From positions 1 to 45,853 of the IMG/VR virus record IMGVR_UViG_3300014890_000015: a stretch of 45,853 nt of DNA, one strand, 5' to 3'. Shown in pieces: positions 26,211 to 44,301 of this stretch (its first letter is position 1; the number at the start of each line of letters is the position of its first letter). The stretch is from a virus. Its lineage: Duplodnaviria > Heunggongvirae > Uroviricota > Caudoviricetes. The position numbers were made by a program, and so were the translations under genes. The notes below the pieces were generated by a model. That model worked only from the letters and a program-made list of their open reading frames with translations, searched no databases and had not been told where the DNA came from.

Positions 26211-26285
<75 letters not shown>

Positions 26286-26288
26286 ATA

Positions 26289-26364
<76 letters not shown>

Positions 26365-28604: not shown

Positions 28605-29090
28605 TTAGTTTTGCTGTTCTATTTTAAGCTTGATAGTTTCATACAAAACAATAGTTGCGCCTGTTTTACATAATTCCCGACTGTCATACGCACGAGACCA
28701 ATAACACAACCAATTTTCAAGCTCTTCTCGTGTATAAATTTTACAGGCCAGCCCCTCAGCCATCTCCACAACTTCATCGCCTGGTGCGGTTAATTCGTAT
28801 CCATTTAACAATAAAAAAACCGCACCAGCCATCATTGCTGTGCGCTTGTTTGCATTGGCAAATGGATGATTCTGAATCAGACTTTCAATCAATACCGATG
28901 CCAGTACAAACATGTCGTTGGTTTGCTCATACCATCGAACCATACTGGGACGAGACTGAGAAGAGCTTAAATTATCAACACTCAGCACACCAACAGGTTC
29001 ATCTGGTGTTTGAAGCTCAATTAAAAGGCGATTAATTTCAGTAAGATCATCAACCGAAAGGTAGTGCACTCCTTCAACAATCTCAGCCAT
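28605..29090 (-). CDS. Doc-like (Fic/Doc family) toxin
   Basis: HPFANANKRTAMMAG matches the Doc H-x-F-x-(D/N)-(A/G)-N-K-R signature; 9-nt gap after an upstream small ORF. Confidence 0.65.
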   Translation of the reverse strand: MAEIVEGVHYLSVDDLTEINRLLIELQTPDEPVGVLSVDNLSSSQSRPSMVRWYEQTNDMFVLASVLIESLIQNHPFANANKRTAMMAGAVFLLLNGYELTAPGDEVVEMAEGLACKIYTREELENWLCYWSRAYDSRELCKTGATIVLYETIKLKIEQQN

Positions 29091-29108
29091 AGAGCACAAT
29101 ACCCATCA

Positions 29109-29288
29109 TTACACTTTTGAAAGATCTTCCATTGCCTTCTCGTAACGAGAAAAACCGAAATCGAAAGCATTTTTCACCTGCTCACGATGAGTGCAATTTT
29201 CATCGATAGCCGGGCGCGGAGCTGCCACAACGCTTTTATCGCGAGGGGGAATAGTCAATCGCGGGTGTTTTTTTAGTGCGTAGCTCAT
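29109..29288 (-). CDS. putative antitoxin partner of Doc-like toxin (59 aa; not in ORF track)
   Basis: ATG with AAGGG RBS; stop 9 nt before toxin start; palindromic operator-like sequence (29351-29374) in its upstream region. Confidence 0.4.
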   Translation of the reverse strand: MSYALKKHPRLTIPPRDKSVVAAPRPAIDENCTHREQVKNAFDFGFSRYEKAMEDLSKV

Positions 29289-29406
29289 TGGTGTACCCTT
29301 ACTTCTCTGTCCTGTTCTTTAACAAAAATTAAGTCAATACAAAATTAGTCAGGCTAATGTTGTTAGCATAGCCTAATACCAATCGTATTCACAACCACAG
29401 TACGTG

Positions 29407-29427
29407 AAAAAACCCGCCGAAGCGGGT
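29407..29427 (-). terminator. terminator hairpin downstream of hok (same 22-nt core as 28567-28590)
   Basis: AAAAAACCCGCCGAAGCGGGTT; T6 on the minus strand. Confidence 0.5.
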
Positions 29428-29497
29428 TAAGTGCGGGTGCGTTGAGGATGCCAACACATCAGAGGTGGCGGGAGATTACTCTCCCGCCTGGTCACTC

Positions 29498-29653
29498 TTA
29501 CTTCTCAGATACGTAGTCCACGAAGACAGCGACCTCCGTCTGGCCGGTTCGGATTCGTACCTCGCAGAGGTCTTTCCTCGTTACCAGTGCCGTCACTATG
29601 ACGGTTAAACAGATGACGATCAGGGCGATTAACATCGCCTTTTGCTGCTTCAT
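29498..29653 (-). CDS. hok: Hok/Gef-family type I toxin
   Basis: 51 aa MKQQKAMLIALIVICLTVIVTALVTRKDLCEVRIRTGQTEVAVF... ; AAGGAG RBS; upstream in-frame/overlapping leader consistent with mok-like region. Confidence 0.8.
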   Translation of the reverse strand: MKQQKAMLIALIVICLTVIVTALVTRKDLCEVRIRTGQTEVAVFVDYVSEK

Positions 29654-29992
29654 AGCCTGCTTCTCCTTGCCTTTCGGCACGTAAGAGGCTAACCTGATGT
29701 TGTCATGCATAGGGAGCCTCAGATTAATGTTAAGCGTCTTGCCGGACGCGTAATGTTAACTGGGGCTTTTCTCTGCCTGCCTTACAGTGGCATGCCCGAG
29801 GCAGACAGCCTCAAGCACCCGCAGCAATCTTACCGACACCGATAAGAAAACGCTATTTTTTATTGCCAGCACCTTCTATCCAGGCTAATTTATCTGCGTC
29901 AGAACGGCGCAATGCGCTCGCCTGAGATACGTTTACTTGCCATGGTAACAACAGATAACGGCAATTGTTGTTTCTGTTTTGTTTCCTTCAAA

Positions 29993-30025
29993 AACCCCGG
30001 ACCATCAATCCGGGGTTTTTGTTTG
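29993..30025. terminator. bidirectional terminator-like hairpin (CCCCGG...CCGGGG)
   Basis: Flanked by A5 and T5 runs; between the 274-aa gene and the hok leader. Confidence 0.4.
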
Positions 30026-30105
30026 TTATCCCCAACGGCAAATCGAATACACCACCAGCGCCACCGCCATTGCAATTCCTACCGTTGTGAACGCTTCAGA
30101 CCAGG

Positions 30106-30930
30106 TCATCGCAAAACATCCTCTGCACTTATCAGTTCGTTCCGCTTCAGGTAGTCCATCGCCTTATCCGGCAATTTACAGTCCGGCTTCACTTTCTTCA
30201 GTTGACTGACCAATTGCTTAACCAGCATGGTTAATTCGTCAGTCTGTTTGCCTGGTACTGGTGGATTGTCGGTTGTTCCATGACTGGCAGTACAGTTGGC
30301 ACTTCCTCCCTTCTCCTCCCGCAGCGGTTCAGGCAACGCATCCAGTGAAGCTTTCACAAACCACGCTGCCTGTACTATAACGCCATGAATCCAGCGCAAA
30401 TCAGCATCACGATCTTTCTTTTTCATCTTCTCGCCACTTAAAGCCTGGCTTATGTGGCTGCGTACCAGGTCTTCATGTAACTCCTTCGCATCCTCAATAG
30501 TGAAACCACCAGGCAGGCGAGCCGAGGTTACATGAGGGTTGCCTTCCCTCTGACTCTGAAGCATGGCGGCGCGGCAGGCGTTCCAGCCATCAACATAATC
30601 AAACGTATTGCTATCGTCTGGCTCGATTTCAGCCGGCACTATCAGCGCAGGCTGGACGGCAACATTGGCAAAGGCTGCACGCAAACCGGCCTTAATTTCC
30701 TCTACTTCATCAGCGCCTAGCGATGAATCTGACAATGCGTGATGGAATGCGTAAGCCATGTCGTCGTTGATTTCTACAGACACACTATCAGCCTTGCGGC
30801 GCTCCTGTAGCTCGCGCAGAGCCGCTGCAACATAATGACTATTGTGCTGGTCAGCCCACAGAATGAGCCGAATCAACGTTGCATTTGAAACGTATTCGTC
30901 TGTTAGTTTGCTATTGGTAAAAGTGGTCAT
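30106..30930 (-). CDS. hypothetical protein (274 aa)
   Basis: Long ORF in nin-like region; no family recognised. Confidence 0.4.
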   Translation of the reverse strand: MTTFTNSKLTDEYVSNATLIRLILWADQHNSHYVAAALRELQERRKADSVSVEINDDMAYAFHHALSDSSLGADEVEEIKAGLRAAFANVAVQPALIVPAEIEPDDSNTFDYVDGWNACRAAMLQSQREGNPHVTSARLPGGFTIEDAKELHEDLVRSHISQALSGEKMKKKDRDADLRWIHGVIVQAAWFVKASLDALPEPLREEKGGSANCTASHGTTDNPPVPGKQTDELTMLVKQLVSQLKKVKPDCKLPDKAMDYLKRNELISAEDVLR

Positions 30931-30982: not shown

Positions 30983-31270
30983 TCATTTCAACCAATCCCN
31001 NNNNNNNNNAAGGAATTCACGACGACCATCACTGATAATTCGCCGATAATCTTCCAGGCTACTGCAATGCTTGTGCAGATTGCATGGGTGGCATGCCGGA
31101 ACCATGTTGGATATATCGTCACGATCCTGGTGAAGCATATTTCCAGCAAAACGAATGACCGGTTTTACGTGGTCTGCGTGCCACTTTTCGCCAAGTTCGC
31201 AGCCGCAATAAGCACAGCGACCGCCGAACTTCATGCGTAATTCTGCACGTTGTTTTTTCGTCAGTGCCAT
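30983..31270 (-). CDS. HNH endonuclease (3' end interrupted by 10-N gap)
   Basis: CAYCGC...HADHVKP...CHPCNLHK HNH/Zn motif; AAGGAA RBS at ATG 31270; Ns at 31000-31009 fall inside the C-terminal codons. Confidence 0.55.
   Translation of the reverse strand: MALTKKQRAELRMKFGGRCAYCGCELGEKWHADHVKPVIRFAGNMLHQDRDDISNMVPACHPCNLHKHCSSLEDYRRIISDGRREFLXXXXDWLK
31000..31009. other. run of 10 ambiguous bases (assembly gap or mask)
   Basis: Literal n characters in the sequence. Confidence 0.95.
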
Positions 31271-31271
31271 T

Positions 31272-31490
31272 TCAGTTTTCCTTATATGGATTAATTTTAT
31301 TGTGCAGTGTATTGAACGACGCCCATACCACGTCGTTATACAATTCAATAAATAGCTCAATTATTTTTCCGATTCCCCATACCAGAATTAAAGGGGATAT
31401 CGGTATCATCAACACGATAAACAGAATGAGAAACAGGAGTTCTATTACCCTGCTTTTTCGCGGATAAATTTTTTTAAATAATGTAGGCAT
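31272..31490 (-). CDS. small membrane protein (72 aa)
   Basis: AAAGGAGAG RBS; one long hydrophobic segment; AT-rich; 1-nt gap to HNH start. Confidence 0.45.
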   Translation of the reverse strand: MPTLFKKIYPRKSRVIELLFLILFIVLMIPISPLILVWGIGKIIELFIELYNDVVWASFNTLHNKINPYKEN

Positions 31491-43925: not shown

Positions 43926-44120
43926 ATGCGGTATGAAAAAGTCAAAGCATGTCCGTTTTGTGGTTGTCCATCAGTAACGGTGAAAGCTATTTCAGGATAT
44001 TACCGCGCGAAGTGTAACGGATGCGAATCCCGAACCGGCTATGGTGGAAGTGAAAAAGAAGCACTCGAACGATGGAATAAACGAACCACTGGAAATAATA
44101 ATGGAGGTGTTCATGTATAA
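43926..44120 (+). CDS. Lar-family restriction alleviation protein
   Basis: MRYEKVKACPFCGC...C..C...ERWNKR zinc-ribbon pattern typical of Lar/RalR. Confidence 0.55.
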   Translation: MRYEKVKACPFCGCPSVTVKAISGYYRAKCNGCESRTGYGGSEKEALERWNKRTTGNNNGGVHV

Positions 44121-44301
44121 AATTACCGCCACTATTGAAAAGGAAGGTGGCACTCCTACTAACTGGACAAGGTACTCAAAAACAAAGTTAACCAAATCGG
44201 AATGCGAAAAAATGCTCTCGGGGAAAAAAGAAGCAGGCGTTTCCAGAGAGCAGAAAGTAAAGCTGATAAATTTTAATTGCGAGAAACTTCTGCCCTCGTG
44301 A
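44113..44301 (+). CDS. hypothetical small protein (62 aa)
   Basis: GGAGGTG RBS before ATG 44113. Confidence 0.4.
   Translation: MYKITATIEKEGGTPTNWTRYSKTKLTKSECEKMLSGKKEAGVSREQKVKLINFNCEKLLPS

What the first reader, a model, noticed from the sequence alone, without database searches (positions are those of the whole stretch)
29407..30025. hok-type type I toxin locus adjacent to the Doc module
A canonical Hok/Gef peptide (29498..29653) with strong RBS lies in a ~450-bp leader bounded by terminator hairpins at both ends. The leader should hold mok-like overlapping translation and a Sok-like antisense RNA on the plus strand, neither of which I can place precisely. Two unrelated toxin modules are packed within 1.5 kb of the nin-like region.
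Basis: partly seen in the sequence, partly recalled or inferred. Interest (0 to 1): 0.4.

Follow-up and report, generated by a model that had tools for sequence, protein, structure and literature searches.

The report
Ordinary prophage hok/mok/sok toxin-antitoxin locus
This is an intact but ordinary copy of the well-studied hok/sok toxin-antitoxin module, the hokW/hokD type common in E. coli lambdoid prophages.

Summary
The Hok peptide is real: 29498..29653, minus strand, 51 aa, Pfam HOK_GEF E=4e-23, 50/51 identical to the experimentally validated HokW of phage 933W/Sp5.

- The hok mRNA runs about 29820 to 29407 (416 nt).
- mok is an in-frame 70-codon ORF, 29498..29710.
- The Sok promoter is TTGCCT-17-TAACCT (29667-29695, plus strand).
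- Sok RNA spans about 29702..29770.
- The 5' tac element (29809-29820) pairs with the 3' fbi element (29435-29447). This pairing covaries across 22 loci from five genera.

The Rfam 'sok' family hits at 109.6 bits (threshold 59), but on the hok-sense strand. It therefore detects the hok leader, not Sok itself.

The 'about 450-bp leader' is wrong. The leader is 167 nt, and homology to other hok loci stops at about 29828. The proposed Sok position (29850..30025) is also wrong. That stretch is a separate, rare conserved module that also occurs without hok. It has the layout of a roughly 130-nt plus-strand small-RNA gene, which is unproven.

The adjacent Doc toxin is confirmed.

Verdict: a known system, correctly recognised, with the anatomy partly misplaced. 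Low interest.

The parts
29827..29832 (-). Putative hok promoter -10 hexamer (TAAGAT), 6 nt upstream of the inferred +1 at 29820. The -35 is weak and not conserved.
   Evidence: Read from the sequence. The same position holds TAGAAT in 933W and TATAAT in hokC-type loci. Inferred; below the threshold of the promoter scan.
29407..29820 (-). Full-length hok (mok-hok) mRNA, about 414-416 nt.
   Evidence: The Rfam RF01794 model starts at 29820. Homology to hokW and other hok loci spans 29407..29828. MFE is -176 kcal/mol, z=-6.85. Of the cells of the folded structure, 80.5% pair across 22 loci against about 40% in slid controls, and 49 pairs carry two-sided changes.
29809..29820 (-). tac (translational activator) element, the 5' end of the mRNA: GGGUGCUUGAGG.
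   Evidence: Pairs with fbi in the MFE structure. The duplex energy is -21.5 kcal/mol.
29762..29770 (-). ucb / anti-SD box (AAAAGCCCC), which sequesters the mok SD in the closed form.
   Evidence: In the MFE structure GCCCC pairs with GAGGC of the mok SD. The role is assigned by analogy with R1 (PMC9841398).
29717..29720 (-). mok Shine-Dalgarno sequence (GAGG), 6 nt before the mok AUG.
   Evidence: Conserved across the loci of alignment A2.
29498..29710 (-). mok reading frame: 70 codons, in frame with hok and sharing its stop codon.
   Evidence: ORF list. Same layout as the annotated mokW of 933W.
29685..29690 (-). dcb box (AGCCUC), complementary to the mok SD. It overlaps the sok promoter on the other strand.
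   Evidence: Duplex energy -10.6 kcal/mol with the SD region. Nearly invariant in A2. The role is assigned by analogy with R1 (PMC9841398).
29663..29668 (-). hok Shine-Dalgarno sequence (AAGGAG).
29498..29653 (-). hok toxin gene, 51 aa: MKQQKAMLIALIVICLTVIVTALVTRKDLCEVRIRTGQTEVAVFVDYVSEK.
   Evidence: PF01848 E=4.3e-23. phrog_251 E=3e-31. One residue (E48V) differs from HokW. This exact sequence is not in the 15-billion-protein collection.
29510..29516 (-). 7-nt loop CUACGUA of a predicted hairpin. It carries the Tyr47 codon UAC followed by G, and mimics the tRNA-Arg2 anticodon loop. The candidate TadA A-to-I editing site is the A at 29514 (Tyr to Cys).
   Evidence: Predicted hairpin, and UACG invariant in 22/22 loci. 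Editing is reported for hokB and for hokC/D/E in the literature (bioRxiv 10.1101/2025.08.07.668861, introduction). Inferred here.
29467..29488 (-). Stable 3'-UTR hairpin (GGCGGGAGAG-UAAU-CUCCCGCC), the expected protective 3' end of the processed mRNA.
   Evidence: Helices 16-17 pair in 96-98% of cells and include two-sided changes. The role is assigned by analogy with R1 (PMC9841398).
29435..29447 (-). fbi (fold-back inhibitory) element: CCUCAACGCACCC.
   Evidence: Forms 12 bp with tac, with one bulge. Across 22 loci 88% of cells pair, against 35-54% in slid controls; pair 4 is U-A in 14 loci, C-G in 5 and U-G in 2.
29407..29428 (-). Intrinsic terminator of the hok mRNA (7-bp stem, UUCG loop, U6).
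   Evidence: The scan missed it because the stem absorbs part of the T-run.
29667..29695 (+). sok promoter: -35 TTGCCT (29667-72), 17-nt spacer, -10 TAACCT (29690-95).
   Evidence: Identical in 933W. The -10 is the hexamer replaced in the sokW 'pro-less' construct, which lost antitoxin activity (PMC8621323, Fig. 1E legend and primer YO-421).
29702..29770 (+). Sok antisense RNA, about 69 nt. It has a 10-nt single-stranded 5' tail over the mok start codon, a long hairpin and a U-run.
   Evidence: The annotated sokW (L001 1777..1847) maps to 29702..29770. Fold -31.1 kcal/mol, z=-5.1. No transcript data exist for this window.
29857..30025 (+). Separate conserved module that is not part of hok/sok, and a candidate plus-strand small-RNA unit of about 130 nt. 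It has a -35 TTGCCA (29863-68), a -10 TAATTT (29886-91), a conserved block from about 29896, a U-rich stretch and a terminator.
   Evidence: No Rfam family matches. Unproven.
29990..30020 (.). Bidirectional intrinsic terminator hairpin. On the minus strand it ends the upstream phage operon (the 27-aa ORF 30026..30109). On the plus strand it would end the candidate small RNA.
   Evidence: Across the variants the stem is nearly invariant while 6 of the 8 loop positions vary.
28605..29288 (-). Neighbouring Doc module: a 59-aa upstream ORF (29109..29288, putative antitoxin) and the Doc toxin (28605..29090).
   Evidence: Fic/DOC PF02661 E=1.7e-11. TIGR01550 120.7 bits. phrog_577 'Doc-like toxin' and phrog_2208. 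Both exact proteins are in public E. coli / E. marmotae records.

Best explanation
The locus is an intact hok/mok/sok type I toxin-antitoxin module of the hokW/hokD subgroup. It sits in the nin-like accessory region of a Rac-like lambdoid prophage and has the same orientation as the early-right operon.

Proposed mechanism:
1. A weak minus-strand promoter makes a hok mRNA of about 416 nt (29820 to 29407).
2. Its 5' end (tac) pairs with a 3' element (fbi). The mok ribosome-binding site is held by the ucb box, so the full-length RNA is neither translated nor bound by Sok.
3. Slow 3' trimming removes fbi and the terminator. The RNA can then refold so that mok can be translated, and hok translation is coupled to mok translation.
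4. A constitutive plus-strand promoter makes the unstable 69-nt Sok RNA (29702..29770). Sok pairs with the mok start region of the processed mRNA and leads to its destruction.
5. When Sok supply stops (loss of the prophage, transcription shut-off or prophage induction), the stable mRNA pool is translated. The 51-aa Hok inserts into the inner membrane and kills or lyses the cell.

The likely biological role is prophage stabilisation and/or helping lysis on induction, as shown for hokW in Sp5.

Shown here: every sequence element, its complementarity, its conservation and its covariation. Inferred by homology: transcription start and end points, 3' processing, refolding, RNase III cleavage, toxicity and physiological role.
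For: - Toxin: the Hok domain matches at E=4e-23, and the peptide is 50/51 identical to HokW.
- Rfam: RF01794 scores 109.6 bits against a gathering score of 59, over 29648..29820.
- Homology: 92.7% nucleotide identity to the annotated mokW/hokW/sokW of 933W over 405 nt, with the features mapping one to one.
- tac/fbi: they pair in the MFE structure. Across 22 loci from Escherichia, Kluyvera, Photorhabdus, Pantoea and Citrobacter, 88% of cells pair against 35-54% in slid controls, with a U-A to C-G compensatory change.
- Whole-mRNA structure: 80.5% of cells pair against about 40%, and 49 pairs have two-sided changes against 22-32 in the controls.
- ucb, mok SD and dcb are all present and complementary.
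- The sok promoter is identical to the experimentally mutated sokW promoter (PMC8621323).
- Sok folds as a 5' tail plus hairpin plus U-run, z=-5.1.
- hokW-sokW is proven to be a toxin-antitoxin pair. sokW RNA was seen on Northern blots, and HokW reaches the inner membrane after induction (PMC8621323). The R1 mechanism is described in PMC9841398.
- hokD occupies the same slot in related Rac-like prophages.
Against: - There are no expression data for this window.
- The promoter scan found no site above its threshold. Both promoters are sub-consensus, as they also are in R1 and 933W.
- The thermodynamic fold of the 3'-trimmed RNA gives the local 5' hairpin, not the open tac/ucb form. Enforcing tac/ucb costs 8.5 kcal/mol, so the refolding step is not reproduced in silico.
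- Hok here carries E48V immediately after the UACG motif, with unknown effect.
- Chromosomal hok loci tested in the past did not mediate post-segregational killing (cited in bioRxiv 10.1101/2025.08.07.668861).
Confidence: 0.9

Rival explanations
1. The locus is a decayed, functionally silent chromosomal hok relic, like hokD of E. coli K-12, which lacks its regulatory region. It would be kept only by hitch-hiking in the prophage.
For: Some loci in the comparison set have lost the 5' elements: L011, L012, L030 and L040 lack tac, and L017 has a broken fbi. Older work found chromosomal hokA/B/C unable to mediate post-segregational killing (cited in bioRxiv 10.1101/2025.08.07.668861). The Hok here carries a private E48V change that is not in the protein collection.
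Against: Every element is intact and in register: both promoters, tac, ucb, mok SD and AUG, dcb, hok SD, the ORF, the 3' hairpin, fbi and the terminator. The nearly identical hokW-sokW is active (PMC8621323).
Confidence: 0.08
2. One reading: the whole of 29407..30025 is one hok unit with a leader of about 450 nt, and Sok is transcribed from 29850..30025.
For: Hairpins do bound that interval. There is a possible plus-strand promoter at 29863-29891.
Against: Homology with all other hok loci and the Rfam model both stop at 29820-29828. 29857..30025 occurs without hok in L050, L051, L059, L062 and L071. An RNA made there would have no complementarity to the hok mRNA. sokW maps to 29702..29770.
Confidence: 0.02
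3. For the sub-region 29857..30025 only: it is an independent small-RNA gene of about 130 nt on the plus strand, transcribed divergently from hok, with its own promoter and an Hfq-type U-rich 3' end.
For: - The module boundary lies 6 nt upstream of a -35 TTGCCA.
- Across 15 variants the -35 varies at 1 of 6 positions and the 17-nt spacer at 13 of 17. The -10 keeps T1, A2 and T6 in all variants.
- The conserved block starts at the predicted start site.
- The fold gives z=-4.3.
- The terminator stem is nearly invariant while its loop varies.
- The one-sided changes are A-U to G-U, which preserve pairing only on the plus strand.
- In L050 and L051 the module follows another plus-strand terminator, so it would need its own promoter.
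Against: - No true covariation was seen, and only a few haplotypes exist even after viral and metagenome scans.
- The promoter matches only 8 of 12 consensus positions and is below the scan threshold.
- There is no Rfam family, no literature hit and no convincing target in the window.
- The conservation may simply reflect recent common ancestry.
Confidence: 0.35

Closest known systems
hokW-mokW-sokW of Stx2 phage 933W / Sakai prophage Sp5
   Same: 92.7% nucleotide identity over 405 nt. Hok is 50/51 identical. mok is in frame and 70 codons long. [quoted passage not shown]
   Different: - The region of the Sok 5' tail and the mok start is diverged, so cross-recognition is unlikely (mean pairwise identity 62% among seven close loci, against 90-98% in the flanking elements).
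- The 3' terminator and the promoter -35 differ.
- The position in the phage differs: here the nin region, co-oriented with early-right genes; in 933W near the right end of the genome.
- Hok carries E48V.
hokD (relF) and 'Hok/Gef family protein' loci of E. coli lambdoid/Rac-like prophages
   Same: They occupy the same slot between the DUF551/DUF4014-type accessory genes and the DUF1367 / RusA / Q genes. Identity is up to 98.6% (E. coli A8). RefSeq annotates them as hokD.
   Different: In the two relatives whose annotation was inspected, no Doc module lies next to hok. From background knowledge, not tested here: K-12 hokD itself lacks the mok/sok regulatory region and lies downstream of relBE.
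hokC (gef)/mokC/sokC chromosomal locus
   Same: Hok is 76-78% identical. tac and fbi are the same. From background knowledge, mokC is also in frame with hokC.
   Different: The Sok-target hairpin is shorter by 18 nt at its apex. The -10 is a strong TATAAT. The locus is chromosomal rather than prophage-borne.
hok/mok/sok (parB) of plasmid R1, the paradigm
   Same: The architecture and the folding logic (tac/fbi, ucb, dcb, 3' processing, Sok with a 5' tail) are the same (PMC9841398). The sok promoter has the same geometry.
   Different: HokW is only about 44% identical in protein sequence to R1 Hok (PMC8621323). From background knowledge, mok of R1 is in a different frame from hok, whereas here it is in frame. 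R1's system is plasmid-borne with a proven post-segregational killing role.

Membership tests
[quoted passage not shown] | A small (about 50 aa) single-helix membrane toxin of the Hok/Gef family. | tested here: met
   PF01848 E=4.3e-23, 81 bits against 22. phrog_251 E=3e-31.
[quoted passage not shown] | A conserved hok mRNA leader structure (Rfam RF01794). | tested here: met
   109.6 bits against a gathering score of 59, over the full model, at 29648..29820 on the hok-sense strand.
[quoted passage not shown] | A mok reading frame that starts upstream of hok and overlaps it, with its own SD. | tested here: met
   A 70-codon ORF at 29498..29710, with GAGG 6 nt upstream. It matches the annotated mokW. 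Translational coupling itself was not tested.
[quoted passage not shown] | Long-range pairing between the mRNA 5' end (tac) and a 3' element (fbi). | tested here: met
   A 12-bp duplex in the MFE structure. It covaries across 22 loci.
[quoted passage not shown] | ucb and dcb boxes complementary to the mok SD, which allow a closed-to-open switch after 3' processing. | tested here: inconclusive
   The boxes are present and complementary. The predicted fold of the trimmed RNA does not adopt the open form, and the enforced open form is 8.5 kcal/mol less stable.
[quoted passage not shown] | A cis-encoded antisense Sok RNA (about 65-70 nt) with its own promoter, overlapping the mok translation start. 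| tested here: met
   At the sequence level: the promoter TTGCCT-17-TAACCT and a tail-hairpin-U-run RNA at 29702..29770, homologous to the annotated and Northern-detected sokW (PMC8621323). Transcription in this organism cannot be tested with these tools.
[quoted passage not shown] | Hok is toxic and Sok neutralises it. | not testable with these tools
   Shown for HokW, which is 50/51 identical (PMC8621323). It needs an induction assay here.
Doc/Phd type II toxin-antitoxin (neighbouring module) | A Doc kinase-type Fic-fold toxin with the HxFx(D/N)(A/G)NKR motif, preceded by a small antitoxin gene. | tested here: met
   TIGR01550 120.7 bits against 38.65. The motif HPFANANKR is present in the translation. 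The 59-aa upstream ORF has no Phd-family hit, only phrog_2208 of unknown function, so the antitoxin role is inferred.
Trans-acting (Hfq-type) small RNA gene, for 29857..30025 | Its own promoter, a conserved transcribed block, an intrinsic terminator with a U-tail and evidence of a transcript. | tested here: inconclusive
   The conservation pattern (promoter-like) and the terminator are present. There is no covariation, no transcript data, no Rfam family and no target.

The most novel reading that the evidence does not exclude
The 170-bp module at 29857..30025 would be an undescribed prophage small-RNA gene of about 130 nt. It has its own promoter, a conserved 5' hairpin, a U-rich stretch and a bidirectional terminator, and it is transcribed divergently from hok. 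It moves as a unit among lambdoid prophages: it is present in 40 of 5426 complete E. coli genomes and 37 IMG/VR contigs, and sometimes occurs without hok.
Probability: 0.3. Interest if true: 0.35.

Novelty: already known. Interest (0 to 1): 0.12.

Why it matters
For the finding itself, the value is mainly annotation. The locus adds one more intact hok/sok copy to a prophage that also carries a Doc module and the RalR/RalA system. That makes three toxin systems in one Rac-like element, in line with the reported enrichment of hok in prophages.

Two practical points follow for genome scans.
- The Rfam 'sok' model reports the hok-sense strand. Sok must therefore be placed on the opposite strand, over the mok start.
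- Boundaries of hok units should be set by the tac and fbi elements, not by the nearest hairpins.

The only part that could lead somewhere new is the neighbouring 170-bp module. It can be tested with a single Northern blot.

Tried and rejected
- The promoter/terminator scan of 29300-30150 found no promoter and only the 29989-30021 hairpin. Its thresholds exclude the sub-consensus hok and sok promoters, and it misses the 3' terminator.
- A permissive Rfam scan of 29250-30150 gave only sub-threshold, terminator-driven hits in the spacer, such as STnc30 and ncr1015. These were rejected.
- The fold of the 3'-trimmed mRNA did not give the open tac/ucb conformation.
- The spacer has no match in GenBank phages.
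- A second viral scan with the terminator motif added only two unrelated chance hits.
- The metagenome scan added no new haplotypes, and its other matches were unrelated GC-rich DNA.
- RNAalifold on 15 spacer variants showed no real covariation.
- A minus-strand mini-ORF in the spacer (MASKRISGERIAPF) was rejected. It is interrupted by a stop codon in L051 and has no SD.
- The 80-aa plus-strand ORF 29912..30154 was rejected because it runs through the terminator hairpin.
- The Pas sRNAs of EPEC prophages were considered for the spacer. They were rejected on context, because they lie near the Q and lysis genes (bioRxiv 10.64898/2026.05.13.724894).
- A literature search for spacer sequence strings found nothing.
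- A duplex-energy target scan timed out. A k-mer complementarity scan found only low-complexity or chance matches.
- The genome-collection scan did not recover the window's own genome, so the host species remains unidentified. Exact Doc-module proteins occur in E. coli and E. marmotae.

Full report
**Context**

The window is a Rac-like lambdoid prophage. recE and recT lie at 39.6-43.9 kb, the RalA antitoxin RNA at 44119..44297 (Rfam, 216.7 bits), an integrase-side ORF from 44618, two tRNA genes at 26214..26364, and terminase and structural genes to the left. It is about 93% identical to E. coli prophages over at most 78% of 24 kb. All genes around the finding are on the minus strand, which is the direction of the early-right operon towards Q and lysis.

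**Observation**

The ORF 29498..29653 (minus strand) encodes a 51-aa peptide. It matches Pfam HOK_GEF over the whole model (E=4.3e-23) and PHROG 'MokW-like host killing' (E=3e-31). An AAGGAG lies 9 nt upstream of the start codon.

Hairpins with T-runs are present at 29407-29428 (minus strand) and at 29990-30020 (bidirectional).

**What the unit is**

Rfam's 'sok' family (RF01794) matches 29648..29820 at 109.6 bits, against a gathering score of 59. The match is on the minus strand and its consensus ends in the hok SD and AUG. The model therefore describes the hok mRNA leader, not the antisense RNA.

Megablast finds relatives in 4716 of 5426 complete E. coli genomes, with a median of 2 copies and up to 9, and in 78 phage records. 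The common homology covers only query positions 28-449, which is window 29407..29828.

The best characterised relative is hokW/mokW/sokW of phage 933W and Sakai prophage Sp5, at 92.7% identity over 405 nt. Its annotation maps one to one onto the window:

- hokW corresponds to 29498..29653.
- mokW, in frame and sharing the stop codon, corresponds to 29498..29710.
- sokW corresponds to 29702..29770 on the plus strand.

Hok differs from HokW by one residue, E48V. This exact peptide is not in the 15-billion-protein collection.

**Anatomy of the mRNA**

Taking +1 at 29820, the full-length RNA (29820 to about 29405) folds at -176 kcal/mol, z=-6.85. In that fold, nucleotides 1-12 (tac, GGGUGCUUGAGG, 29820-29809) pair with CCUCAACGCACCC (fbi, 29447-29435).

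I tested this pairing on 22 hok loci from Escherichia, Kluyvera, Photorhabdus, Pantoea, Citrobacter and an unnamed enterobacterium.

- 88% of cells pair, against 35-54% when the partner is slid by 1-3 columns.
- Pair 4 is U-A in 14 loci, C-G in 5 and U-G in 2.
- Per-locus duplex energies are -18 to -26 kcal/mol, against shuffled means of about -8 to -12. The exceptions are three loci that have lost an element.

For the whole predicted structure, 80.5% of cells pair against about 40% in the slid controls. Forty-nine pairs show changes on both sides, against 22-32 in the controls.

The other named boxes of the R1 model (PMC9841398) are all present:

| Element | Sequence | Window position |
|---|---|---|
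| ucb / anti-SD | AAAAGCCCC | 29770-29762 |
| mok SD | GAGG | 29720-29717 |
| dcb | AGCCUC | 29690-29685 |
| 3'-UTR hairpin | GGCGGGAGAG-UAAU-CUCCCGCC | 29488-29467 |
| Terminator | 7-bp stem, UUCG loop, U6 | 29428-29407 |

I could not reproduce the closed-to-open refolding. The fold of the 3'-trimmed RNA keeps the local 5' hairpin, which is the known 'metastable' pairing. Enforcing tac/ucb costs 8.5 kcal/mol.

**Sok**

On the plus strand lie TTGCCT (29667-72), a 17-nt spacer and TAACCT (29690-95), followed by a G at 29702. These are identical in 933W.

TAACCT is the hexamer that Takada et al. replaced in their sokW 'promoter-less' construct, which lost antitoxin activity. The same authors detected sokW RNA by Northern blot (PMC8621323: Fig. 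1E and Fig. 4A legends, primers YO-421 and YO-592).

The predicted RNA has a 10-nt free 5' tail over the mok AUG, a long hairpin and a U-run (-31.1 kcal/mol, z=-5.1).

Among seven closely related loci, the stretch under the Sok 5' tail is the most variable part. Its mean pairwise identity is 62%, against 90-98% for the flanking elements. This fits selection against cross-talk between the several hok/sok copies a cell can carry. That reading is an inference.

**Mechanism and role**

By homology, the locus should work like R1 hok/sok and hokW/sokW.

1. The full-length mRNA is stable but locked.
2. It is slowly activated by 3' trimming.
3. Sok binds the activated form and causes its destruction.
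4. Hok is made only when the Sok supply stops.

For Sp5, HokW is produced after RecA-dependent induction, reaches the inner membrane, and the locus doubles phage release (PMC8621323). Here hok is co-oriented with the early-right operon and lies just downstream of a terminator. Antiterminated read-through on induction could therefore both raise hok-sense RNA and interfere with sok transcription. This is speculation and was not tested.

A further inferred layer concerns RNA editing. The Tyr47 codon lies in a 7-nt loop, CUACGUA, of a predicted hairpin. UACG is invariant in 22/22 loci. This is the TadA editing motif reported to recode Tyr to Cys in hokB and in hokC/D/E (bioRxiv 10.1101/2025.08.07.668861).

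**What the rest of the interval is**

The stretch 29829..30030 is found in only 40 of 5426 E. coli genomes, in no GenBank phage record and in 37 IMG/VR contigs.

In five loci (L050, L051, L059, L062, L071) the part 29857..30025 occurs without hok. For the two whose annotation was inspected (L050, L051), it lies next to a plus-strand 93-aa gene that has its own terminator. In all cases examined, the module stays attached to the terminator hairpin and to the 27-aa hydrophobic ORF (30026..30109). It is therefore a separate mosaic module, not a hok leader.

Its conservation pattern across 15 variants looks like a small plus-strand transcription unit:

- The -35 TTGCCA varies at 1 of 6 positions.
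- The 17-nt spacer varies at 13 of 17 positions.
- The -10 TAATTT keeps T1, A2 and T6 in every variant.
- A nearly invariant block follows from about 29896.
- A U-rich stretch comes next, then a terminator whose stem is fixed while 6 of 8 loop positions vary.

The fold of 29898..30030 has z=-4.3.

Against this reading:

- No covariation could be shown, because only a few haplotypes exist even after viral and metagenome scans.
- No Rfam family matches.
- There is no literature match.
- No target is evident in the window.

I rate it a candidate small RNA at about 0.3-0.35. It is not Sok.

**Neighbour**

The Doc toxin (28605..29090) is confirmed by TIGR01550 at 120.7 bits, and the motif HPFANANKR is present. 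It is preceded by a 59-aa ORF with no known antitoxin family. Both proteins occur identically in E. coli and E. marmotae records.

In related prophages the same slot holds hokD without Doc. The claim of two toxin modules within 1.5 kb is true, and it reflects the mosaic nature of this accessory region.

**Verdict**

This is a real, intact and already well-understood system: the hokW/hokD subgroup of hok/sok. hok genes are known to be enriched in prophages (bioRxiv 10.1101/2025.08.07.668861). Interest is low (0.12). The only open lead is the adjacent 170-bp module.

Noticed in passing
window 29857..30025 (+): A conserved 170-bp module independent of hok, with a promoter-like conservation pattern, an invariant block, a U-rich stretch and a terminator. 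It is a candidate undescribed prophage small RNA of about 130 nt. It is present in 40/5426 E. coli genomes and 37 IMG/VR contigs, and occurs without hok in five loci.
   Followed up: partly
window 29648..29820 (-): The Rfam RF01794 'sok antitoxin' model matches the hok-sense strand, and its consensus ends in the hok SD and AUG. It therefore models the hok mRNA leader. The real Sok is on the opposite strand and covers only part of the match.
   Followed up: yes
window 29510..29516 (-), A at 29514: The Tyr47 codon of hok lies in a predicted 7-nt loop, CUACGUA, which resembles the tRNA-Arg2 anticodon loop. UACG is invariant in 22/22 hok loci. This is the likely TadA A-to-I editing site (Tyr to Cys). 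This allele has UACGUA instead of the usual UACGAA, which causes E48V.
   Followed up: partly
window 29696..29714: The stretch under the Sok 5' tail and the mok start is much more variable among near-identical hok loci than the flanking elements (62% against 90-98% identity). This suggests diversification that keeps co-resident hok/sok copies from cross-reacting.
   Followed up: partly
window 30026..30109 (-): A 27-aa hydrophobic ORF (MTWSEAFTTVGIAMAVALVVYSICRWG) overlaps the stop of the upstream 274-aa gene in an ATGA. Homologues sit just upstream of hokW in 933W and in L050. No family hit was found and the function is unknown.
   Followed up: no
window 44119..44297 (-): RalA antitoxin RNA (Rfam RF02694, 216.7 bits), the antitoxin of the RalR/RalA type I system of Rac. 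It is a third toxin system in the same prophage.
   Followed up: no
window 26214..26364 (-): Two adjacent prophage tRNA genes. The anticodon loops read UGU (Thr) and UCC (Gly), matching the tRNA-Thr and tRNA-Gly annotated at the same place in E. coli ETEC1706.
   Followed up: no
window 29109..29288 (-): The 59-aa ORF upstream of Doc has no Phd or other antitoxin family match, only phrog_2208 of unknown function. It is a possible uncharacterised Doc antitoxin family.
   Followed up: partly
window 31000..31009: A run of 10 N (a masked stretch) interrupts an HNH-endonuclease-like ORF (30983..31360, minus strand).
   Followed up: no
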